Shown here: positions 4,325-32,500 of the stretch, one piece after another
Position numbering within the stretch: the first letter of the stretch is position 1
Layout of the letters: each line of letters begins with the position of its first letter
Sequence record: OQ885479
Source of the DNA: Escherichia phage SUT_E1520
Direction: 5' to 3' (one strand)
Length of the DNA: 64,000 nucleotides
Program-made: the position numbers and the translations under genes
Notes under the pieces: model-generated
The model's input: the letters and a program-made list of their open reading frames with translations, nothing else
Told to the model about the DNA's origin: nothing
Database searches by the model: none

Positions 4325-4426
4325 AATTCTGTGTAGAGTTAAGTAAACCGGTAGCCAACCAGCTATCATTGCTGACATCGAATTCAGTCACAGATACCAT
4401 TTTCATTAATAACTGAGGAAACAAGC

Positions 4427-4724: not shown

Positions 4725-5072
4725 ATGATTAATGCTAAAGAAGAATTGTTACTTGCCTTAAAGAATATTAATTCTGAAGTTAAGTGTATTAAGATAGAAT
4801 TCGGTTATTATGGGGACAAAGAAGTTTGGGTGTTACCCGTAGGTTATACAGAAAAAGATATTGAAGATTTTCTAAATAATCTAGACTTTAAATATGATTC
4901 TGGTTTCGGTGGGCAATTGCTTTATGGTAACGTGTGGTTTACTGATGGAACTTGGTTAGAACGTGGTGAATACGACGGTTCTGAATGGTGGGAATATAAG
5001 GCTACACCAGCAATCCCAGAAGAATGCCGAACAATTAAGGGTGAAGTAGATAATACTTTACGGTTAAACTAA
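4725..5072 (+). CDS. hypothetical protein
   Basis: ORF track. Confidence 0.55.
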   Translation: MINAKEELLLALKNINSEVKCIKIEFGYYGDKEVWVLPVGYTEKDIEDFLNNLDFKYDSGFGGQLLYGNVWFTDGTWLERGEYDGSEWWEYKATPAIPEECRTIKGEVDNTLRLN

Positions 5073-5079
5073 TAAAATT

Positions 5080-5182
5080 TCAGTGCAGAACACGGAGCTA
5101 GCAATTCGGAAGTGCTGACTCATGATAAGCTGCCTATGTACTTGCGAAGCGGTCGTGTCCAAGACTCGGACTCTTGCACTGA
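5080..5182 (+). ncRNA. structured non-coding element 1 of 3 in tandem (about 100 nt, long closing helix)
   Basis: No ORF; CAGTGCAGA pairs with TCTTGCACTG across about 90 nt. Confidence 0.3.
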
Positions 5183-5203
5183 AAACAATCAAACATTCTA
5201 GCG

Positions 5204-5316
5204 TGGTTGATGGGGAAACCAGCTTGGCGAGGGCAGAAGCTCGTTCGATTCGAGTGAAAGAATGGTTCTCGTAAGTCCGCACAAGTGATAACAGGTTCGA
5301 GTCCTGTCTAGAATGA
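5204..5316 (+). ncRNA. tRNA-like structured element 2 of 3 (about 112 nt): 8-bp acceptor-like helix, D-arm-like and canonical T-arm, no standard anticodon arm
   Basis: CATTCTAG / CTAGAATG closing helix; TGGTT-GATGGGGAA-ACCA; ACAGG-TTCGAGT-CCTGT. Confidence 0.35.
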
Positions 5317-5327
5317 CACTATAAAGT

Positions 5328-5438
5328 TTACTTATTATGTAGGTTCCGATAGATCGGCGGGTCTATTCTGGCACTTAAGAGAGGTCTCGCAAACTTCTTT
5401 GTCAGCCGTGGGGTTGGTAGCCTCCAGGTGGCCTACAC
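5328..5438 (+). ncRNA. structured non-coding element 3 of 3 (about 110 nt)
   Basis: TACTTATTATGTAGG pairs with CCTACACAATAAGTA; no ORF. Confidence 0.3.
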
Positions 5439-5464
5439 AATAAGTAAATTTATTAAAAATTCAT

Positions 5465-5493
5465 TTGCTATTATGCTTAATTCTCTGTATAAT
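5465..5493 (+). promoter_or_regulatory. T5-type early promoter
   Basis: TTGCTA-N17-TATAAT; leader ATAAAGTGTTGAGAAGG. Confidence 0.6.
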
Positions 5494-5525
5494 ATACCTT
5501 ATAAAGTGTTGAGAAGGAAAGCAAA

Positions 5526-5723
5526 ATGAAAAAAGTTTTACTGCTGTCTGTATTCCTACTTACTGGTTGTTTTAAACTTGACTCAACCATTAATAAAGAG
5601 TATGAATTTGCTAAAAATTTCTGTGGCGGAGAGAGTAATATAAAGAATTTCTACATATATAGTACAATTCCTAGTACCGTTTATTGTGTAGACGGACGAA
5701 TTATTAATATTCCTCCACAATAA
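5526..5723 (+). CDS. putative lipoprotein (signal peptide with lipobox LTGC)
   Basis: ORF track; N-terminus MKKVLLLSVFLLTGC. Confidence 0.5.
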   Translation: MKKVLLLSVFLLTGCFKLDSTINKEYEFAKNFCGGESNIKNFYIYSTIPSTVYCVDGRIINIPPQ

Positions 5724-5732
5724 AAGAATTAA

Positions 5733-5808
5733 CAGTGCGTAGCGCAGTTGGTAGCGTGGGAGCCTTGGATGCTTCGGGTCGCAGGTTCGAGTCCTGCCGC
5801 ACTGACCA
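5733..5808 (+). tRNA. tRNA-Pro (UGG)
   Basis: Acceptor CAGTGCG/CGCACTG, D-arm GCGCAGTTGGTAGCGT, loop CTTGGAT, T-arm GCAGGTTCGAGTCCTGC, CCA. Confidence 0.7.
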
Positions 5809-5815
5809 AACAATT

Positions 5816-5892
5816 GCGGGTTAGATCTCTGGTAGAGATCGCTAGTCTCATAAGCTAGAAAGAGGTAGGTTCGATTCCTGCACCCGCTTCCA
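5816..5892 (+). tRNA. tRNA with CAU anticodon (Met or Ile2 type)
   Basis: Anticodon arm CTAGT-CTCATAA-GCTAG, T-loop GGTTCGATTCC, CCA; first acceptor pair imperfect. Confidence 0.55.
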
Positions 5893-5912
5893 TTTTAATA
5901 GAGGATTTCGAA

Positions 5913-6080
5913 ATGAAAGTATTTCGATTAGTAGTAAGTGACAAACGGTTAGGTAAGAATACATCAAAATCCTTACTCGCTCATTATGGTAAAAATTGGG
6001 ATGAAGTAATGGTAGAGTTTAGTACTAATCACCCTTACTTAAAAGTCCACTCTATTAAGGAAGTGTATAATGGTTACTAA
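5913..6080 (+). CDS. hypothetical small protein (55 aa)
   Basis: ATG after SD AGAGGA; below the track cutoff. Confidence 0.35.
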   Translation: MKVFRLVVSDKRLGKNTSKSLLAHYGKNWDEVMVEFSTNHPYLKVHSIKEVYNGY

Positions 6081-6081
6081 T

Positions 6082-6160
6082 AGATCGCTAGCTCAATAGG
6101 TTTAGTAGCATCCGACTTTTAATCGGAAGGTTCTGGGTTCGAGTCCCAGGCGATCTACCA
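6082..6160 (+). tRNA. tRNA-Lys (UUU)
   Basis: Acceptor AGATCGC/GCGATCT, anticodon arm TCCGA-CTTTTAA-TCGGA, T-arm CTGGGTTCGAGTCCCAG, CCA. Confidence 0.7.
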
Positions 6161-6178
6161 ATTTCAAGAAAAACGCAG

Positions 6179-6207
6179 TTGCTTAATGCTTAATTTCTTG
6201 TTATAAT
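6179..6207 (+). promoter_or_regulatory. T5-type early promoter driving a non-coding leader and downstream tRNAs
   Basis: TTGCTT-N17-TATAAT; leader ATAAATTGATGAGGAG but no ORF follows. Confidence 0.6.
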
Positions 6208-6214
6208 ATTTATA

Positions 6215-6445
6215 TAAATTGATGAGGAGAAATCCTCATCATAGTTCACTAAGGTATTAGCTCGACCTAGGACTGGCTGCCAAAAAGCACGATCCCTACG
6301 ATTCGGGAGAAGTTCTAGATTAGTCCACTAGGTTCAGCGGCAACTGAATAGTGTATCGGGTTTGCGAGATGACGCGGTTCCTTCCGCTTGAAGCGAAGGT
6401 GCTGTAGTTACGCCGAGCTAATAGCCTTAGTAAACTAAAGAATTT
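6215..6445 (+). ncRNA. promoter-proximal structured non-coding RNA candidate (about 230 nt) upstream of tRNA-Ala
   Basis: No ORF or tRNA fold; 9-bp long-range helix ATTAGCTCG (6256-6264) with CGAGCTAAT (6414-6422). Confidence 0.35.
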
Positions 6446-6524
6446 GGGGAATGGGTCTGCATGGAGTGGACACCTCGCTTGCACCGAGGACATCAGAACG
6501 GTTCGATTCCGTTATTCTCCACCA
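6446..6524 (+). tRNA. tRNA-Ala (UGC)
   Basis: Acceptor GGGGAAT/ATTCTCC, anticodon arm CCTCG-CTTGCAC-CGAGG, T-arm AACGGTTCGATTCCGTT, CCA. Confidence 0.65.
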
Positions 6525-6529
6525 AACAT

Positions 6530-6606
6530 GCGTGATTGATGGAATTGGCATACATACCGTCCTTAGAAGTCGGGTTTTGAGGGTTCGAATCCCTTGTCAC
6601 GCACCA
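6530..6606 (+). tRNA. tRNA with UAG anticodon (Leu type) on a short-variable-loop scaffold; atypical
   Basis: Acceptor GCGTGAT/GTCACGC, loop CTTAGAA, variable GTTTT, T-arm GAGGGTTCGAATCCCTT, CCA. Confidence 0.5.
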
Positions 6607-6718
6607 AATTTGATGGTCAGAGTAAATTAAACCTACTATCTCGGTTGAGCTGTTTTAATGGGTTCGAATCCCAGCGAGGCGTAACTGCCTGGTGTGATAG
6701 AGGCATCATCTTATTATT
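6607..6718 (+). ncRNA. non-coding segment with an orphan T-arm (GGGTTCGAATCCCAG) and no recognisable acceptor stem
   Basis: Canonical T-loop near 6658-6672 but no complementary 5-prime/3-prime acceptor halves found by hand. Confidence 0.25.
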
Positions 6719-6809
6719 GGAAGAGCAAATCGAATTGGCGACGAAAACCGCTTGGAAAGTGGCTGACTGGTAAAACGGCTTGAGAGTTCAAATCTCTCCT
6801 CTTCCGCCA
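6719..6809 (+). tRNA. tRNA-Ser (GGA), class II
   Basis: Acceptor GGAAGAG/CTCTTCC, loop TTGGAAA, long variable arm, T-arm GAGAGTTCAAATCTCTC, CCA. Confidence 0.6.
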
Positions 6810-6821
6810 AACAATTTATAT

Positions 6822-6916
6822 GGTAGGTCAATCCAATGGCTGGCGCTGGACTCCGACTTGAAATCGGTTGATCGTAGTGATACGGTGTAAGGGTTCGATC
6901 CCCTTACCTACCTCCA
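6822..6916 (+). tRNA. tRNA-Ser (UGA), class II with a very long variable arm (95 nt total)
   Basis: Acceptor GGTAGGT/ACCTACC, anticodon arm CCGA-CTTGAAA-TCGG, T-arm AAGGGTTCGATCCCCTT, CCA. Confidence 0.6.
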
Positions 6917-7062
6917 AATCCTGAAGTATGCCGGAATCGGTAGACGGGGCTGCCTAAAAGGTTTATAGGGAACATCCACTCCCTGCAACATACCTCATAA
7001 AGCGGCTGAGATAAATGGTCTATCTCGTGAAGGTTCAAGTCCTTCTGCTTCTTGATACACCA
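6917..7062 (+). ncRNA. non-coding structured segment containing a T-arm-like hairpin (GAAGG-TTCAAGT-CCTTC); not resolved as a tRNA
   Basis: No ORF; several local hairpins, including GAGATA-AATGGTC-TATCTC. Confidence 0.25.
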
Positions 7063-7282
7063 ATGGCTCAAAGTGTAACGGTGCTATTTGATGCGCTTAG
7101 TAAGACTTCCCCGACATGCGTTCGGGAGTAAGCTGCTAAGACTAGAGTAGAAGAGTTTCTGAGAGCCGCCACAATTGAAAATTCGTACTCGTCTTGAGCT
7201 GCGTGCAATAGGAGATAACTTGATTAGTATTCTAGAACATGCTAATTGAGGAAGGTTTCGCTAACCCTGCGAGTTTTCAATT
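7063..7282 (+). ncRNA. non-coding structured segment with a 13-bp long-range helix
   Basis: CCACAATTGAAAA (7169-7181) pairs with TTTTCAATTGTGG (7273-7285); no ORF, no canonical T-loop. Confidence 0.3.
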
Positions 7283-7359
7283 GTGGCTATATCATAATTG
7301 GTTAATGATCCTGATTGTGAATCAGGCCTATGTGGATTCGAATTCCACTAGCCACCCCA
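7283..7359 (+). tRNA. tRNA-His (GUG)
   Basis: Acceptor GTGGCTA/TAGCCAC, anticodon arm CCTGA-TTGTGAA-TCAGG, T-arm GTGGATTCGAATTCCAC, CCA. Confidence 0.7.
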
Positions 7360-7384
7360 AATTAACTTAAATAGGAAATAAAAT

Positions 7385-7579
7385 ATGGCTGATTTCTGCA
7401 AACAATGCTCCATTGATATGTGGGGTAAAGATACTGGTGATCTTTCTGGTTTGATTACAGAAGCTGAGGTCAAAGAAGGTTATGGTGCAGTTGTGATTTG
7501 CGAAGGATGCGGCGTTATTCGTGTTGATCATGAAGGCAAACGTTTGGAAGAATCTGAGCCAACAACAATTTTTCCGTAG
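7385..7579 (+). CDS. small Cys-containing protein (CxxC...CxxC zinc-finger-like)
   Basis: ORF track; SD AGGAAATAAA. Confidence 0.5.
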   Translation: MADFCKQCSIDMWGKDTGDLSGLITEAEVKEGYGAVVICEGCGVIRVDHEGKRLEESEPTTIFP

Positions 7580-7591
7580 AATAAAAATTAT

Positions 7592-7667
7592 TGGGATGTA
7601 GATCAATTGGCAGATCGTCGGCCTCTGACTCCGAAGGTTCCACGTTCGATCCGTGGCATCCCAGCCA
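7592..7667 (+). tRNA. tRNA-Gln (CUG)
   Basis: Loop CTCTGAC, T-arm CCACGTTCGATCCGTGG, CCA. Confidence 0.55.
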
Positions 7668-7673
7668 AATAAT

Positions 7674-7749
7674 TGGAGAGTAGTGTAACGGTTAGCACAA
7701 CGGCCTTTGACTCCGTTAATGGTAGGTTCGATTCCTCCTTCTCCAGCCA
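7674..7749 (+). tRNA. tRNA-Gln (UUG)
   Basis: Loop CTTTGAC, T-loop GGTTCGATTCC, CCA. Confidence 0.55.
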
Positions 7750-7757
7750 AACAATAA

Positions 7758-7833
7758 GCGGTTAAGCACACGGGTTGTGCCGCAGGCCTTCCAAGCCTCG
7801 CTGAGTAGGGTTCGATTCCCTCTAGCCGCTCCA
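7758..7833 (+). tRNA. tRNA-Gly (UCC)
   Basis: Acceptor GCGGTTA/TAGCCGC, loop CTTCCAA, T-loop GGTTCGATTCC, CCA. Confidence 0.6.
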
Positions 7834-7849
7834 ACTTTAAGGAAACATT

Positions 7850-8101
7850 ATGCACGTTTTTGAGTTTCGTAATAAAAGTACCGAAAAACGAGTTATTGTT
7901 ATTGGAGAAACATACCGAGCATACGAACAAACTGACGGCTCTGTTATCCTGAATGATGAGAAAGGAGGTTTTAGCTTTTATCCAGAAGAACCTTATGAAG
8001 AGTTTCGAAAACAATTTAACCTAGACTGGAGAAAGCATTTAAACACTGTTGCTTCATCTGTAGTATTGCCAACTACCAGTACTGTACTCTCTAATGGCTG
8101 A
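7850..8101 (+). CDS. hypothetical protein
   Basis: ORF track; SD AAGGAAACA. Confidence 0.5.
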   Translation: MHVFEFRNKSTEKRVIVIGETYRAYEQTDGSVILNDEKGGFSFYPEEPYEEFRKQFNLDWRKHLNTVASSVVLPTTSTVLSNG

Positions 8102-10583: not shown

Positions 10584-10931
10584 ATGAGCCGTACTTATCG
10601 TAAACAATCTGGTGATCAGTGGTGGAAGTCTAAAGAACACTTCTCTCAAGAATATTCTTTCTTCAAAGAAAATGGCTACTGGATTCGTGTTATTTATGCC
10701 AAATCCTGGGACGACATCAAAAAAGAAATGAAGGAAGCAACCATTCGTAATGAGAAAAAGGATGGTTATAACTGGAATTCCATTAGTAAGAATGTTAAGT
10801 GGCACTCTAATAAAATGGTTCGTCAAGGGAATCGTCAAGAACTTCACCGCGTGATGAAAGATCCAGAAAATTACGACTATAATCGCGATCATGACATGCG
10901 TAAGCGTGGGTTATGGTGGTGCTATGACTAA
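10584..10931 (+). CDS. hypothetical protein
   Basis: ORF track; SD GGAGGTAAT. Confidence 0.55.
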   Translation: MSRTYRKQSGDQWWKSKEHFSQEYSFFKENGYWIRVIYAKSWDDIKKEMKEATIRNEKKDGYNWNSISKNVKWHSNKMVRQGNRQELHRVMKDPENYDYNRDHDMRKRGLWWCYD

Positions 10932-29110: not shown

Positions 29111-29211
29111 AATAACTCCCTAGTAAATATATTTTTGCCAATAGTGGCGAATGTTATCGCCACCAGCGGAATCATTAGCGGCCTTACTATTACCAACGAA
29201 AATATATAATC

Positions 29212-29571
29212 TCATTGCGCCACCTTTCGAAACGCTGTTTCAATACTATCCGCAGTGGATTGAATATATGCGCCTTTCATTATCAGGCGCTCGGTACATA
29301 CCTTGCGGAAAATATTAATAAAATCATCTTCATTTTCTGCAATTAATGCTTCACCCATAACCTGAACGTCACAAGATGCAAAGGTCAAAAATTGAAACGC
29401 TAGTTCACGGGCAACGACCGCATTAATTTTATAATGTGCCTTGCCCTCATAAATATTAATAACGCCCTTATAAGCTGGGGAAAGCTGATTTAAATAGTTT
29501 GCTAATAATGCTGGGCGGCAATTAGCAACAAAACGATTGCCTTCATAAATTATCATTTGCATAGCTCCCAA
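29212..29571 (-). CDS. hypothetical protein (TTG start per track; first ATG at 29562)
   Basis: ORF track. Confidence 0.5.
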   Translation of the reverse strand: MGAMQMIIYEGNRFVANCRPALLANYLNQLSPAYKGVINIYEGKAHYKINAVVARELAFQFLTFASCDVQVMGEALIAENEDDFINIFRKVCTERLIMKGAYIQSTADSIETAFRKVAQ

Positions 29572-29675
29572 ATAGTTCCGCCGATGATCATTAGCTGACT
29601 AATAATTATCAGAATAAAACCAATTGAAGGCAGGACGCCCCAAAAACGAAAAGCCGTTTTAATTTGCTGAATCAT
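29553..29675 (-). CDS. small membrane peptide (40 aa)
   Basis: Overlapping-coupled with its neighbours; single TM segment; below the track cutoff. Confidence 0.3.
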   Translation of the reverse strand: MIQQIKTAFRFWGVLPSIGFILIIISQLMIIGGTIWELCK

Positions 29676-29802
29676 TTGTTAGCCTCCCGATTAGATAGCC
29701 AGATAAAAGCATAAAGATCCCCAATGAAATGGGGTCATTTTTAAATAAGGTGGCGATAAAACCGCCAGCCATTGCAAGGATAATAACAATAACGCTTTTC
29801 AT
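29659..29802 (-). CDS. small membrane peptide (47 aa)
   Basis: ATGA overlap with the upstream stop; TM segment; below the track cutoff. Confidence 0.3.
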   Translation of the reverse strand: MKSVIVIILAMAGGFIATLFKNDPISLGIFMLLSGYLIGRLTNDSAN

Positions 29803-30011
29803 AGTACCCCACGAAACGCAGCGTAAAAGGTGGCAAAGTGTTTAACTGTTTCAGCTATCACGTTGCCGCGCTTATCAAATTTTTTCTCGGTAACACGAAA
29901 GGCATTTTTGTTACGTGCTACATATTCGATTTTACAATCTTCCCGCTCGAACGTGTTAACATCCACCAGCTTAAAGCCTTTCGAACGTGCAAGGGAAACG
30001 TTGCGGATCAT
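29799..30011 (-). CDS. hypothetical protein (70 aa)
   Basis: ORF track; SD AAGGAGA upstream. Confidence 0.45.
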   Translation of the reverse strand: MIRNVSLARSKGFKLVDVNTFEREDCKIEYVARNKNAFRVTEKKFDKRGNVIAETVKHFATFYAAFRGVL

Positions 30012-30013
30012 TT

Positions 30014-30163
30014 TTATTCTCCTTTACTAGTCATGCAGCCCAGCAGATAAGAAAACGCAGCAATGCCAGCGCCAATAATAACGGCGTGAACGCCAAAAGC
30101 TATTGCAAACAACGATAAAATAGCGCCCAAGATACCCGCCAGAATAGCTCGAAAAATAACCAT
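30014..30163 (-). CDS. small membrane peptide (49 aa)
   Basis: SD GGAGAAT upstream; TM segment; below the track cutoff. Confidence 0.3.
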   Translation of the reverse strand: MVIFRAILAGILGAILSLFAIAFGVHAVIIGAGIAAFSYLLGCMTSKGE

Positions 30164-30213
30164 TTTTTTTTATTCTCCTAGTCAGTGAGGGATATAATAT
30201 CCCCCGTTACTAA

Positions 30214-30444
30214 TTACATTAAAACAATTTTTGCAGCTTGTTTTTTAGTACAGTGTTCCGCTTTCAGCGTGTCCAGCAAAAAGCCCGCCGTTTGCTGATC
30301 GATTTTATCGGCGTTGTATAGTTCTTGGATGGTGTTATAAGTTTTAGCAATGCCGAACTCCTGCACCATTTCATGAATAATGGCGCGGTTAGATACCCAG
30401 CCTTGAGCGGTGAACAGATGAGTAGCAGAAGAGTAAGCAACCAT
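30214..30444 (-). CDS. hypothetical protein (76 aa)
   Basis: ORF track. Confidence 0.45.
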   Translation of the reverse strand: MVAYSSATHLFTAQGWVSNRAIIHEMVQEFGIAKTYNTIQELYNADKIDQQTAGFLLDTLKAEHCTKKQAAKIVLM

Positions 30445-30548
30445 TTTAAGCCTCCAAATTTTTGGGAAATTTTTAATCCACCGTTTTGGTGTAAAAGCAT
30501 TATAACAAAAAAGGCCACCATAAAAGGCGACCTTTACAAAACTTTACA

Positions 30549-31043
30549 TTAAACTACCTGTAAGGATTCAACATTGAAACATCGTTTTAATTCATCATGT
30601 AAAACAGCGTATTCCTCCCATCGGGTATTATCAGGAATATAAACAAGCTGTTTTAATCGATTTGCGTATATTACCGCTTTATTATCAATTATTTCGACGC
30701 CACCATATTTAATAATTAATTTCATGACGGAATTAATAGGATCGCCGCCGTTTACATATGTGCCGGATTTACTTAATTGATAATGATAAAGGCCAGCATA
30801 TACGTTTTCATTTTCATACCATTCGCCAGTTTCTTCGTCTTCATAGCCATCGCTACCAAAACGAGAAGCATTATCAATAGCCATTTCATGAGCGAAAGCG
30901 TCCAGATCCGTACCAGCAGGAACAAAGTATTCCTCGGTATTCCCTTCCCCGCAATAGCCAGTATGACAATCGACTAAAATGATCATATCATGTTTAGCCG
31001 TGCTCACTTCCCCTAGCGAGAAGCCGTATTTTTCCTCAGCCAT
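30549..31043 (-). CDS. hypothetical protein (164 aa)
   Basis: ORF track; SD AGGAGG upstream. Confidence 0.55.
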   Translation of the reverse strand: MAEEKYGFSLGEVSTAKHDMIILVDCHTGYCGEGNTEEYFVPAGTDLDAFAHEMAIDNASRFGSDGYEDEETGEWYENENVYAGLYHYQLSKSGTYVNGGDPINSVMKLIIKYGGVEIIDNKAVIYANRLKQLVYIPDNTRWEEYAVLHDELKRCFNVESLQVV

Positions 31044-31108
31044 TTATTAGCCTCCTATTAATTAACAAGGGAGTAGTAAAGCGGGGAAATAATCCCCGCT
31101 AAATATTA

Positions 31109-32119
31109 TTACTCGCTTTCGGTGTTAGTGGTAAAAGTAGAAATATCAATACCTTTCACCATTTCATCAATCATTTCAGCGATGTTAAAACTTTGCACCA
31201 TTTCCAGCATTGCCGCTTCCATAGCCGCCCCCGCTACCGCTTTCGCCTTTTGGTTAGTCGGTGCGTACTGGTCAACCGCTACACTCAGCAGGTTAGCGAT
31301 CACTACACGACCAATAGGTGTATCGATATAACCTTTGATCATGAATGGTGCTTTTTTAGCCGCTACTTTCGTAATTTGAGTTAATGCAATTTTACCCGCC
31401 TCCAGTTTTGCAGCATTTACAACAGCGGATTTATTGGCGGCAACGATGTTAGCAATCTTGGTCATGGTGTTTTTTCCTTTGTTTTCAGTAGTTTGAGTGT
31501 TAACGCTTTGAGTGTTAGAATTTACAGCATGGTTTTCTACGCTGTCAATAATCTGATCTTCATCTTTCCAGAAAGAAAAACCAGCGCTTTCTATATCCCC
31601 ATCATAAATATATGGGTATAGCTCCCGTGGTAACAAAAAATTACCGTCGCCATCAAAAGCCATTATACCGGTATATTGAGATCCGTCGTTATCCGGCTTA
31701 TGCCATCCAGCGGGTAAATACTTCCAGATAACATCTAAAAATCCCTCAATGCTAGAAAGTCCATTTATCAGATCAAGTCCAATAAGCTCAAAACTATTTA
31801 TATTAAATGATTGACGGCCTGAATTGCTATGATACGCAACAATATTATTACCCTGCGCAACAATAAAATCGGTATCCGGCCCCGCTCCCCTGCCTGTAAA
31901 GATATGGCAATCCCGATTATATAAAACTAGCGTTGCCCCTTGTCTATATAAGGGTAGAAAACTATCCATATCATAAGCGTCATAATCATCAAAAAAGTTT
32001 TGATGAATAGTTTCAATCTTGTTAATAAAATGTTTAATGCTGGTTGACTTGCTACCGTCTAGCAGGTTGCGCAATGCACCCTTTAATACGGTGGCATTAT
32101 CAGGTTTATACAGCCTCAT
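31109..32119 (-). CDS. hypothetical protein (336 aa), first gene of the minus-strand operon
   Basis: ORF track; SD GAGGAGG upstream. Confidence 0.6.
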   Translation of the reverse strand: MRLYKPDNATVLKGALRNLLDGSKSTSIKHFINKIETIHQNFFDDYDAYDMDSFLPLYRQGATLVLYNRDCHIFTGRGAGPDTDFIVAQGNNIVAYHSNSGRQSFNINSFELIGLDLINGLSSIEGFLDVIWKYLPAGWHKPDNDGSQYTGIMAFDGDGNFLLPRELYPYIYDGDIESAGFSFWKDEDQIIDSVENHAVNSNTQSVNTQTTENKGKNTMTKIANIVAANKSAVVNAAKLEAGKIALTQITKVAAKKAPFMIKGYIDTPIGRVVIANLLSVAVDQYAPTNQKAKAVAGAAMEAAMLEMVQSFNIAEMIDEMVKGIDISTFTTNTESE

Positions 32120-32385
32120 TTGTTAGGCCTCCTCGTTAATCGGTGAGTGAATGATAAAGGTAAATTTCTAGCATAGGCAAATATTATTTTACCTTTTTAT
32201 TTTCCTTGCCTAGCGCCTATTTTTATGATAACCGCGCAGCGGTGCAATAAAGAGCAAACCACGGCGAAGCCACCAGGCCGACGCATTGAGGCTTTACTTT
32301 AATATTACCTTACAGCGTTTAGCTCGTTAGAATGCGATTTAAGCCGCTTAAAATTGATTGCAGTTGTTAACACTACCTTTTTACC

Positions 32386-32500
32386 CTGTATAAATATACA
32401 GTAGGATAACCTGTGGATAAGTCTGTGTAAAAGTCCTTATATCGCCGCCTATCGTGTCAAGTCAAAAAGTGCTGTGGATAACTTTGTGTATAACTTAAAT
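32386..32500 (+). repeat. right arm of the inverted repeat, with LexA-like box and two TGTGGATAA DnaA boxes
   Basis: LexA-like box at 32386-32401; DnaA boxes at 32412-32420 and 32473-32481. Confidence 0.6.

What the first reader, a model, noticed from the sequence alone, without database searches (positions are those of the whole stretch)
6607..7282. Further ORF-free structured segments between tRNAs, including a 13-bp long-range helix
Segments 6607-6718 (orphan T-arm GGGTTCGAATCCCAG with no acceptor), 6917-7062 (T-arm-like GAAGG-TTCAAGT-CCTTC plus a GAGATA/TATCTC hairpin) and 7063-7282 (CCACAATTGAAAA pairing with TTTTCAATTGTGG about 90 nt away, overlapping the tRNA-His 5-prime end) could not be folded as tRNAs. 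Together with the elements above, roughly 1.3 kb of the island is structured non-tRNA RNA.
Basis: seen in the sequence. Interest (0 to 1): 0.5.

Follow-up and report, generated by a model that had tools for sequence, protein, structure and literature searches.

The report
Known T5 stable RNAs between tRNAs

Summary
ARAGORN and Rfam assign no tRNA or RNA family to 6607-6718, 6917-7062 or 7063-7282. The window is a Tequintavirus. The T5 RefSeq record already annotates the homologous DNA as misc_RNA: RNA1 (window 6920-7064, "tRNA-like stable RNA"), RNAI (7065-7171) and RNAIII (7176-7281), all "function unknown". The main finding is therefore already known.

New here:
- **RNA1** is a covariation-supported, tRNA-Leu-like cloverleaf. 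A 60-nt arm with an invariant ACAUCCAC loop replaces the anticodon arm.
- **RNAI** is a rod-shaped hairpin ending in R-CCA in three genera.
It pairs RNAI's CCA tail with tRNA-His +1..+5. Its length holds across five different inserts (11 of 19 pairs compensatory). It blocks the tRNA-His acceptor stem in the predicted precursor fold. The annotated RNAIII ends lie inside it with a 2-nt 3' overhang, which suggests host RNase III (inferred).
- **6607-6718** is an unannotated, conserved four-way-junction RNA with a T-loop hairpin (100% of pair cells paired, 6 compensatory pairs).

Trans functions remain unknown. A viable T5 deletion mutant lacks the three annotated RNAs.

The parts
6607..6718 (+). 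'segA': an unannotated conserved structured RNA between tRNA-Leu(UAG) and tRNA-Ser(GGA). The covariance-model core is 6607-6710. Helices: P1 6611-6615/6704-6708; P2 6632-6634 and 6636-6640 with 6696-6703; Pd 6642-6644/6650-6652; P3 (T-loop hairpin UGGG-UUCGAAU-CCCA) 6659-6673; P4 6675-6692.
   Evidence: At least 97% identical in many Tequinta/Epseptimavirus genomes and present in Sugarlandvirus. Model R1 finds it once per genome in 29 sources and finds no paralogues. 100% of 300 pair cells are paired, with 6 compensatory pairs and 0/500 shuffles for the covariation score. A third lineage (L109) again keeps the pairs. No feature is annotated under it in almost any record.
6719..6916 (+). Context: tRNA-Ser(GGA) 6719-6809 and tRNA-Ser(UGA) 6822-6916.
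   Evidence: Annotated in T5_ev212, HildyBeyeler and DT57C. Sub-threshold tRNA-Sec-type Rfam hits. Missed by ARAGORN.
6920..7064 (+). RNA1 (T5 gene rna1, T5s03, 'tRNA-like stable RNA'). Acceptor stem 6923-6928/7046-7051. D arm 6931-6947. Extended 'anticodon' arm 6948-7007 with invariant apical loop ACAUCCAC at 6972-6979. Variable arm 7008-7026. T arm 7029-7045. 13-nt 3' tail.
   Evidence: BLAST to T5 rna1 gives 85.5% (annotation). Cloverleaf count on 23 sequences: 99% paired, 10 compensatory pairs, 0/500 shuffles. The 5' part is closest to tRNA-Leu.
7065..7171 (+). RNAI (T5 rnaI, T5s02, 107 nt): a rod-like imperfect hairpin. Terminal stem GGCUC/GAGCC (7065-7069/7163-7167), then G7168 and CCA 7169-7171.
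   Evidence: 91.6% to T5 rnaI. Annotated in T5 and DT57C. Homologues in Epseptimavirus and Sugarlandvirus keep GGCYC...RGCC-R-CCA, with compensatory changes in the terminal and apical stems. All three sequence classes give the same rod fold.
7172..7175 (+). CAAU spacer between the annotated RNAI 3' end and the RNAIII 5' end. It lies inside the 5' arm of the long helix.
   Evidence: The 4-nt gap is in the T5 and DT57C annotations and maps here.
7176..7281 (+). RNAIII (T5 rnaIII, T5s01, 106 nt): a three-way junction closed by the long helix. Inner 12-bp hairpin at about 7219-7250.
   Evidence: 99.1% to T5 rnaIII. Folds. 95-100% identical wherever this version of the insert is present, 98-100% within Tequintavirus. 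Other lineages carry different inserts of 40, 75, 145 or 153 nt between the same helix arms.
7168..7187 (+). 5' arm of the 19-20 bp closing helix. It contains RNAI's discriminator base and CCA.
7268..7287 (+). 3' arm of the closing helix. Its last 5 nt are tRNA-His +1..+5.
   Evidence: U7182:G7273 and U7186:G7269 are wobble pairs only on the + strand.
7283..7359 (+). tRNA-His(GUG). The T5 annotation starts it one base earlier, at U7282.
   Evidence: ARAGORN, Rfam 59.9 bits, 78-nt T5 annotation.

Best explanation
The segments are genes for small stable RNAs. They are co-transcribed with the tRNAs of a T5-like phage and cut out of the polycistronic precursor by host enzymes.

Identity (shown):
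- 6920-7064 is T5 RNA1, 7065-7171 is T5 RNAI and 7176-7281 is T5 RNAIII.
- 6607-6718 is a fourth, unannotated RNA of the same kind.

Anatomy (shown by covariation and folding):
- RNA1 is a tRNA-Leu-derived cloverleaf. Its anticodon arm is replaced by a 60-nt arm with an invariant ACAUCCAC loop.
- RNAI is a rod ending in a tRNA-type R-CCA.
- RNAIII is whatever insert sits inside a 19-20 bp duplex. That duplex pairs RNAI's CCA tail with the first nucleotides of tRNA-His.
- In the predicted fold of the primary transcript this duplex wins over the tRNA-His acceptor stem.

Mechanism (inferred):
- The duplex is a host RNase III site.
- A staggered cut at 7175/7176 and 7281/7282 would release RNAIII with a 2-nt 3' overhang.
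- The same cut would free RNAI, whose 4-nt tail is then trimmed back to CCA.
- It would also unlock tRNA-His for folding and final 5' maturation.
- RNA1, RNAI and segA would be released by the usual tRNA-processing enzymes acting on their own ends or on those of their neighbours.

What the released RNAs do in trans is unknown. They are non-essential on laboratory hosts.
For: Identity:
- The window is 100% identical to Escherichia phage SUT_E420 over 6500-7400 and lies in a Tequintavirus tRNA island.
- T5 RefSeq annotates rna1, rnaI and rnaIII between tRNA-Ser1 and tRNA-His. They map to 6927-7064, 7065-7171 and 7176-7281 at 85.5%, 91.6% and 99.1% identity.
- DT57C carries the same annotation.

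Not tRNA and not coding:
- No tRNA or Rfam call.
- RNAI length classes of 100, 101, 106 and 107 nt are not multiples of three apart.

Structure:
- RNA1: 99% of pair cells paired, 10 compensatory pairs.
- segA: 100% paired, 6 compensatory pairs.
- RNAI: terminal and apical stems covary.

Helix:
- 18-19 of 19 closing positions pair in all five insert types, and the count stops there in each.
- 97.7% paired, 11 of 19 pairs compensatory, 0/500 shuffles.
- z-scores of -3.2 to -7.5.
- In the 298-nt precursor fold the 20-bp helix stacks on RNAI's stem and the tRNA-His acceptor stem is not formed.

RNase III:
- The annotated RNAIII ends are U7176, which pairs with A7279, plus overhang A7280-U7281.
- The annotated RNA2H ends (6255, 6426) lie inside a 17-bp helix with the same 2-bp stagger, and no tRNA abuts them.
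- RNAIV is closed by a 20-nt helix.
- E. coli RNase III is reported to take part in T4 tRNA maturation (PMC4810235).

Dispensability: T5_123, with deletion 29191-32442, removes all three annotated RNAs and is viable (PMC11464382).
Against: - No RNA-level data were available here.
- The mature ends come from database annotation whose experimental basis I could not read. The RNAIII 3' end may have been set simply by adjacency to a tRNA-His drawn with a -1 base.
- RNAIV's annotated ends give a 1-nt stagger, not 2.
- 19-20 bp is at the short end for E. coli RNase III substrates (my own knowledge).
- A Novosibvirus has only an 11-bp hairpin before tRNA-His, so the device is not general in Demerecviridae.
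- RNAIII's interior is 98-100% conserved within Tequintavirus, which suggests a role beyond a cis processing signal.
- Covariation comes from only three to five lineages, so independent events are few.
Confidence: 0.65

Rival explanations
1. The released RNAs act in trans as decoys or sponges. RNA1 (a tRNA-Leu-like class-II mimic with no anticodon loop), RNAI (a CCA-ended rod) and segA (a T-loop RNA) would bind and titrate host tRNA-targeting defence nucleases or tRNA-binding proteins. They would complement the phage's nuclease-resistant tRNAs. This does not exclude the processing role.
For: - tRNA-like arms are preserved by covariation while the anticodon loop is absent.
- The ACAUCCAC loop and the R-CCA end are invariant across genera.
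- T5-like phages are attacked by several tRNA-cleaving systems: PARIS, Retron-Eco7, Septu and Schlafen. Septu cleaves the variable loop of a class-II tRNA (abstract).
- The RNAs are dispensable on lab strains, as expected for conditional counter-defence genes.
- A convergent SNP in T4 rnaD arose during host adaptation (PMC12685909).
Against: There is no direct evidence. In the PARIS study the rescuing fragment encoded tRNAs, not these RNAs. One lineage reduces the RNAIII position to a bare 40-nt hairpin, so at least RNAIII's interior is expendable.
Confidence: 0.25
2. The long helix is only a structural clamp or insulator that keeps neighbouring modules from misfolding. All cuts are made by RNase P, RNase E and 3' exonucleases, and RNase III is not involved.
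For: - RNAI's R-CCA end and the tRNA neighbours fit ordinary tRNA processing.
- The RNAIII 3' end coincides, within 1 nt, with the RNase P site of tRNA-His.
Against: - The RNAIII 5' end (7176) lies inside a perfect duplex, where single-strand-specific RNase E should not cut. The sequence CAAU|UGAA also lacks the U at +2 reported for RNase E sites (abstract of PMC5222698).
- The predicted precursor fold denies RNase P a folded tRNA-His.
- The RNA2H ends show the same stagger without any adjacent tRNA.
Confidence: 0.2
3. The segments are decaying tRNA pseudogenes or neutral spacer DNA with no selected structure.
For: RNA1 is clearly tRNA-derived. segA keeps a perfect T-loop hairpin. The region is a hotspot for homing-endonuclease and ORF insertions.
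Against: - Stems are maintained by compensatory and wobble changes across three genera.
- Loops and R-CCA are invariant.
- Curated records annotate the products as stable RNAs.
Confidence: 0.04
4. The segments encode small proteins, as several GenBank records annotate.
For: Short ORFs exist, for example 7015-7131 and 7239-7370. 'Hypothetical protein' CDS are called over the region in some records.
Against: - The ORFs overlap tRNAs and are not conserved.
- Homologues differ by 1-, 6- and 7-nt indels.
- Substitutions follow base-pairing, not codon positions.
- Curated T5 and DT57C annotations give RNAs.
Confidence: 0.02

Closest known systems
Phage T5 stable RNAs RNA1, RNAI and RNAIII (NC_005859 features T5s03, T5s02, T5s01; also annotated in DT57C)
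   Same: Homologous sequence (85.5%, 91.6% and 99.1% identity). Same order: tRNA-Ser, RNA1, RNAI, 4-nt gap, RNAIII, tRNA-His. Same strand as the tRNAs.
   Different: This window lacks T5's CDS T5.063 and the hegC homing endonuclease. Where T5 has hegC, the window carries the 112-nt segA RNA. RNA1 here ends ...CACCAAU, whereas T5 has ...UAUCAAU.
Phage T4 species 1 and species 2 RNAs (rnaC, rnaD)
   Same: Small stable RNAs of 139 and 119 nt. They are encoded inside a phage tRNA cluster, next to a homing endonuclease, and directly follow a tRNA. They carry tRNA-like pieces: a T-arm in rnaC and a ...GCACCA end right after rnaD. Their roles are unknown (PMC3014915).
   Different: No sequence similarity beyond the generic T-arm: the best BLAST hit is 16/17 nt to the segA T-loop hairpin, and nhmmer finds nothing. 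The phage family is different.
RNase III processing stems: the T4 tRNA precursor, rRNA operon stems, T7 early-RNA sites
   Same: A long duplex formed by sequences flanking an excised RNA. The annotated product has a 2-nt 3' overhang. RNase III involvement in phage T4 tRNA maturation is reported (PMC4810235).
   Different: Cleavage has not been shown for T5-like phages. Here one arm is the CCA end of another small RNA and the other arm is the 5' end of a tRNA. I have not seen that arrangement described (my own knowledge, not a literature proof).
Canonical class-II tRNA-Leu
   Different: RNA1 has no 7-nt anticodon loop and no discriminator plus CCA after the acceptor stem. tRNA models reject it.

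Membership tests
tRNA (Rfam RF00005 / ARAGORN cloverleaf) | Cloverleaf with a 7-bp acceptor stem, a 5-bp anticodon stem with a 7-nt loop, a T arm, and a score above the family threshold | tested here: not met
   No ARAGORN call. No Rfam hit in 6607-6718, 6917-7062 or 7063-7282, even at E<=10.
T5 stable RNAs RNA1 / RNAI / RNAIII | Sequence homology to the annotated T5 genes | tested here: met
   BLAST gives 85.5%, 91.6% and 99.1% identity over essentially full length. Alignment A1.
T5 stable RNAs RNA1 / RNAI / RNAIII | Synteny: between tRNA-Ser(UGA) and tRNA-His, on the tRNA strand | tested here: met
T5 stable RNAs RNA1 / RNAI / RNAIII | Accumulates as a discrete stable RNA in infected cells | not testable with these tools
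   Only the database annotation 'stable RNA' is available. The primary papers are not in the searchable library.
T5 stable RNAs (as a kind), applied to segA 6607-6718 | Conserved, structured, ORF-free unit between tRNA genes on the tRNA strand | tested here: met
   T5 itself lacks it, and it is not annotated in any record seen.
E. coli RNase III substrate | Near-perfect duplex of about two helical turns | tested here: met
   19-20 bp at 7168-7187/7268-7287. The length is conserved in five insert types.
E. coli RNase III substrate | Product termini inside the duplex with a 2-nt 3' overhang | tested here: inconclusive
   The annotated RNAIII (7176-7281) and RNA2H (6255-6426) ends fit. RNAIV gives 1 nt. 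The experimental provenance of the annotated ends could not be checked.
E. coli RNase III substrate | Cleavage depends on RNase III in vivo or in vitro | not testable with these tools
   Needs rnc mutants or purified enzyme.
T4 rnaC / rnaD | Sequence homology | tested here: not met
   Only a generic T-arm match at E = 0.013, and no nhmmer hit.
Any curated Rfam family (tmRNA, Y RNA-like, GOLLD/ROOL, introns and others) | Covariance-model hit | tested here: not met
   Only tRNA-clan hits appear, all outside the three segments.

The most novel reading that the evidence does not exclude
The 19-20 bp duplex would be a phage device that makes tRNA-His maturation depend on RNase III and sets its 5' end. 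It could leave the extra -1 nucleotide (U-1) that RNase P would not retain without a G-1:C73 pair. The RNAs excised alongside it would be tRNA mimics used as decoys against tRNA-targeting immune nucleases: RNA1 with its invariant ACAUCCAC loop, the CCA-ended RNAI, and the T-loop RNA segA.
Probability: 0.15. Interest if true: 0.65.

Novelty: already known. Interest (0 to 1): 0.33.

Why it matters
Small stable RNAs in the tRNA clusters of T4 and T5 have been known since the 1970s-80s, and none has an assigned function. They sit in an island that is now recognised as a counter-defence locus against tRNA-cleaving immune systems.

This work adds no new class. It turns an old annotation into testable statements:
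- A duplex of conserved length ties RNAI's CCA end to the 5' end of tRNA-His, and it should make tRNA-His maturation depend on RNase III.
- RNA1 is a tRNA-Leu mimic with an invariant loop.
- A further conserved RNA (segA) is missing from every annotation seen.

None of these RNAs is in Rfam. Several GenBank records place spurious CDS calls over them, so family models built from these alignments would improve annotation of hundreds of T5-like genomes.

Tried and rejected
- **tRNA and ncRNA prediction.** ARAGORN and Rfam, at gathering threshold and at E<=10, found nothing in the three segments.
- **Literature.** Searches for T5 stable RNAs, T5 with RNase III, and T5 transcriptomes found no open-access description of RNAI, RNAIII or RNA1. 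The experimental basis of the annotated ends therefore could not be read.
- **IMG/VR pattern scans.** Scans for an RNAI motif and for the segA core returned only T5-like isolates, so no wider family was found.
- **Distant IMG/VR loci.** Loci L035-L071, fetched via the T5.062-like protein, contain no segA. They were not examined for the other RNAs.
- **RNAI alignment.** MAFFT misaligns the middle of the three RNAI classes. RNAalifold therefore recovers only the terminal and apical stems, and I did not build a model to fix this.
- **My first hand-typed helix alignment** contained typing errors and was discarded. It was replaced by scripted sequences.
- **Permuted tRNA for segA.** Considered and dropped, because covariation supports the long-range P2 pairing rather than a D-arm hairpin.
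- **Protein-coding and pseudogene readings.** Rejected on indel pattern and covariation.
- **Generality of the helix.** A Novosibvirus was checked for the helix and has only an 11-bp hairpin.
- **A 14-nt complementarity** between the RNA2H 3' arm (6406-6419) and segA P4 (6673-6686) was not pursued and may be chance.
Full report
**Observation**

- GGGTTCGAATCCCAG at 6660-6674.
- GAAGG-TTCAAGT-CCTTC at 7029-7045.
- The GAGATA/TATCTC hairpin at 7008-7026.
- CCACAATTGAAAA at 7169-7181, with its reverse complement at 7274-7286. That is 2 matches against 0.01 expected in shuffles.

The repeat finder extends the arms to 7168-7185/7270-7287. With the wobble pairs U7182:G7273 and U7186:G7269 the helix runs 7168-7187/7268-7287, 20 bp. 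These G-U pairs exist only on the + strand, which is the strand of the tRNAs.

ARAGORN and Rfam (gathering threshold; E<=10 over 4900-7900) place no tRNA or other family in 6607-6718, 6917-7062 or 7063-7282. The two stretches in between are class-II tRNA-Ser genes (6719-6809 and 6822-6916). ARAGORN misses them, but related records annotate them.

**What the window is**

The 901 bases around the finding are 100% identical to Escherichia phage SUT_E420. They match 454 phage records, nearly all T5-like, and the closest records fetched belong to Tequintavirus.

The T5 RefSeq record NC_005859 annotates, between tRNA-Ser1(UGA) and tRNA-His:
- a small CDS, T5.063;
- misc_RNA rna1 ('tRNA-like stable RNA with unknown functions', 144 nt);
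- rnaI (107 nt);
- rnaIII (106 nt, abutting tRNA-His).

BLAST of those features against the window gives:

| T5 feature | Window coordinates | Identity |
|---|---|---|
| rna1 | 6927-7064 (full length extrapolates to 6920) | 85.5% |
| rnaI | 7065-7171 | 91.6% |
| rnaIII | 7176-7281 | 99.1% |
| tRNA-His, 78 nt | 7282-7359 | 100% |

DT57C carries the same rnaI and rnaIII annotation. Other T5 misc_RNAs map to the 'elements above': rna3 4327-4399, rna2 5194-5318, rnaIV 5337-5439, rna2H 6255-6426.

**RNA1**

23 distinct homologues from Tequintavirus, Epseptimavirus and Sugarlandvirus align with almost no gaps. A tRNA-type cloverleaf fits them:
- 6-bp acceptor stem;
- 3-bp D stem with an 11-nt loop;
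- hairpin variable arm;
- T arm;
- a three-segment 60-nt arm in place of the anticodon arm.

This fold is 99% paired, with 10 pairs changed on both sides and 0/500 shuffles reaching the covariation score. Slid controls drop to 41-50% paired.

The apical loop ACAUCCAC (6972-6979) is essentially invariant. The acceptor and D-arm sequence is closest to tRNA-Leu: 16/19 nt with T5 tRNA-Leu1. No discriminator plus CCA follows the acceptor stem, and the distal 'CCA' in this window is TCA in T5.

**RNAI**

Three sequence classes exist, of 107, 100 and 101 nt in the three genera. All share GGCYC...GUAACGG(U)UGC...GAGUUUC...RGCC-R-CCA. Each folds into the same rod-like imperfect hairpin.

RNAalifold on a MAFFT alignment recovers the terminal stem (U:A to C:G) and the apical stem (CCCGA/UCGGG, CCUGG/CCAGG, UCUGG/CCAGA, CUUGG/CCAAG), with 7 compensatory pairs. 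The middle is misaligned and was not quantified. The conserved R-CCA gives RNAI a tRNA-type 3' end.

**The long helix and RNAIII**

I took the sequence from RNAI's CCA to the first nucleotides of tRNA-His in every locus. This gives five insert types of 40, 75, 118, 145 and 153 nt whose interiors have largely diverged in sequence.
- Each closes with 18-19 paired positions out of 19 counted from the ends, and the pairing run ends there.
- On an alignment of the two arms, 97.7% of cells pair and 11 of 19 pairs carry changes on both sides. 0/500 shuffles reach the observed covariation score, and slid controls pair 32-46%.
- All variants fold with the full helix, at z = -3.2 to -7.5.
- One lineage (L013) has only a 40-nt hairpin with a GCAA loop. 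The conserved element is therefore the duplex, not RNAIII's interior.

The 5' arm always starts at RNAI's CCA. The 3' arm always ends inside tRNA-His, at +4/+5 in Tequinta/Epseptimavirus and at +2 in Sugarlandvirus.

In a fold of 7065-7362 the 20-bp helix stacks directly on RNAI's terminal stem, and the tRNA-His acceptor stem does not form (z = -4.7).

**How it probably works**

The annotated RNAIII starts at U7176, which pairs with A7279, and ends at U7281. That is a blunt helix end with a 2-nt 3' overhang. The reciprocal product, ending at 7175, has the same overhang opposite U7282. This is the geometry left by RNase III.

The RNA2H ends cannot have been set by an adjacent tRNA. They lie inside a 17-bp helix (6248-6264/6414-6431) with the same 2-bp stagger. 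RNAIV is closed by a 20-nt helix, with a 1-nt stagger.

E. coli RNase III is reported to take part in T4 tRNA maturation (PMC4810235).

I therefore infer this sequence of events:
1. RNase III cuts the duplex.
2. RNAIII is released.
3. RNAI is freed, and its CAAU tail is trimmed back to CCA.
4. tRNA-His can now fold.

Shown here: identity, folds, covariation, and sequestration of the tRNA-His 5' end in the predicted precursor fold. Inferred: the enzyme and the order of events.

Caveats:
- I could not read the primary papers.
- The RNAIII 3' end may have been assigned by adjacency to tRNA-His.
- 19-20 bp is short for RNase III.
- A Novosibvirus has only an 11-bp hairpin before tRNA-His.

**Segment 6607-6718 (segA)**

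T5 itself has the hegC homing endonuclease here, which explains why no annotation exists. The 112 nt are at least 97% identical in the Tequinta/Epseptimavirus loci fetched here. In the phage collection, 167 of 251 matching records are at least 99% identical. Sugarlandvirus has homologues in the same position, after tRNA-Leu(UAG).

A covariance model built on a hand-derived structure has five helices: P1, bulged P2, a 3-bp Pd, the T-loop hairpin P3 and P4.
- It finds exactly one copy in 29 sources and no paralogues.
- All 300 pair cells are standard pairs, and 6 pairs change on both sides.
- The single-sided changes are all to wobble pairs.
- A third lineage (L109) gives yet another P2 (CUGCU/AGUAG) and another P3 (CGGG/CCCG).
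- ORF insertions in HildyBeyeler and L109 begin right after its 3' end, so it behaves as a discrete unit.

segA is a conserved four-way-junction RNA carrying a canonical T-loop. It is of the same kind as the T5 'tRNA-like' RNAs but is not annotated. Its thermodynamic z-score alone is not significant.

**Function in trans**

This is unknown. T5_123, with deletion 29191-32442, removes RNAIII, RNAI, RNA1 and RNA2H and is viable (PMC11464382). The T5-annotated RNAs are therefore not essential on laboratory hosts; segA, which T5 lacks, was not tested.

The island is a counter-defence locus against tRNA-cleaving systems. A decoy role for the tRNA-like RNAs is plausible but untested. The strong conservation of RNAIII's interior within Tequintavirus and the invariant RNA1 loop hint at functions beyond processing.

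**Comparison and novelty**

The closest known things are:
- the T5 RNAs themselves, which are homologous and syntenic;
- T4 rnaC and rnaD, which are analogous: stable RNAs in a tRNA cluster beside a homing endonuclease, with roles unknown. They show no sequence similarity beyond a T-arm.

The finding as written is already known. The increments are segA as an extra member, covariation-backed structure models, and the duplex of conserved length with RNase III-type termini. None of these RNAs is in Rfam, and some GenBank records place CDS calls over them.

Noticed in passing
window 6719-6809, 6822-6916, ~7757-7832, 1778-1852: Four tRNA genes are missed by ARAGORN. Three are annotated in related records: tRNA-Ser(GGA), tRNA-Ser(UGA) and tRNA-Gly(UCC). 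The fourth (1778-1852) passes Rfam at 40 bits. The three in the region scanned at E<=10 get only sub-threshold tRNA-Sec-type Rfam hits.
   Followed up: partly
window 6530-6606: The tRNA with anticodon UAG (Leu) is class-I shaped: 77 nt with no long variable arm. The phiR2-01 record calls its homologue 'tRNA-Pseudo-TAG'. T5 itself has a normal 85-nt class-II tRNA-Leu1 at this position.
   Followed up: no
window 6248-6264 / 6414-6431 (RNA2H, 6255-6426) and 5324-5343 / 5432-5451 (RNAIV, 5337-5439): Two other T5 stable RNAs are also closed by 17-20 bp helices. Their annotated ends lie inside the helix, with a 2-bp stagger for RNA2H and 1 nt for RNAIV. This suggests a shared double-strand-specific excision mechanism.
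   Followed up: partly
L104 ~1037-1160 (Salmonella phage SB9); L072 ~1800-1931 (Klebsiella phage IME260): A further conserved ORF-free module with two hairpins (GUGCUUC...GAGCAC and GGGAUGAGAGACCAUCCC-like) sits just upstream of RNAI in these lineages. It is absent from the window.
   Followed up: no
window ~6709-6718; L002 2209-2465; L109 ~10700-10809; T5 hegC: ORF and homing-endonuclease insertions occur exactly at the borders of segA. T5's hegC replaces segA altogether. The island is mosaic at the level of single RNA modules.
   Followed up: partly
window 7176-7281: RNAIII is 98-100% identical across Tequintavirus genomes. The adjacent RNAI is 90-100% and RNA1 82-100% identical. The cause is unexplained; strong constraint or recent gene conversion near tRNA-His are possibilities.
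   Followed up: no
window 6406-6419 and 6673-6686: A 14-nt stretch, 86% complementary, links the 3' arm region of RNA2H to hairpin P4 of segA. It could be chance or a long-range contact.
   Followed up: no
window 7385-7579: The 64-aa T5.062-like protein downstream of tRNA-His has two CxxC pairs. It has homologues in 63 IMG/VR loci, and many of the contigs differ in size from T5 genomes.
   Followed up: no
L005 964-1125 (Salmonella phage Sepoy gp180) and similar records: 'Hypothetical protein' CDS are annotated across RNAI and RNAIII in several GenBank records. They are probably spurious.
   Followed up: partly
L102 850-893 (Proteus phage 2, Novosibvirus): tRNA-His is preceded by an 8-bp hairpin and then an 11-bp hairpin that ends exactly at -1. 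Before these lies an unannotated tRNA-like element ending ...GGUGCACCA. There is no 19-bp helix.
   Followed up: partly
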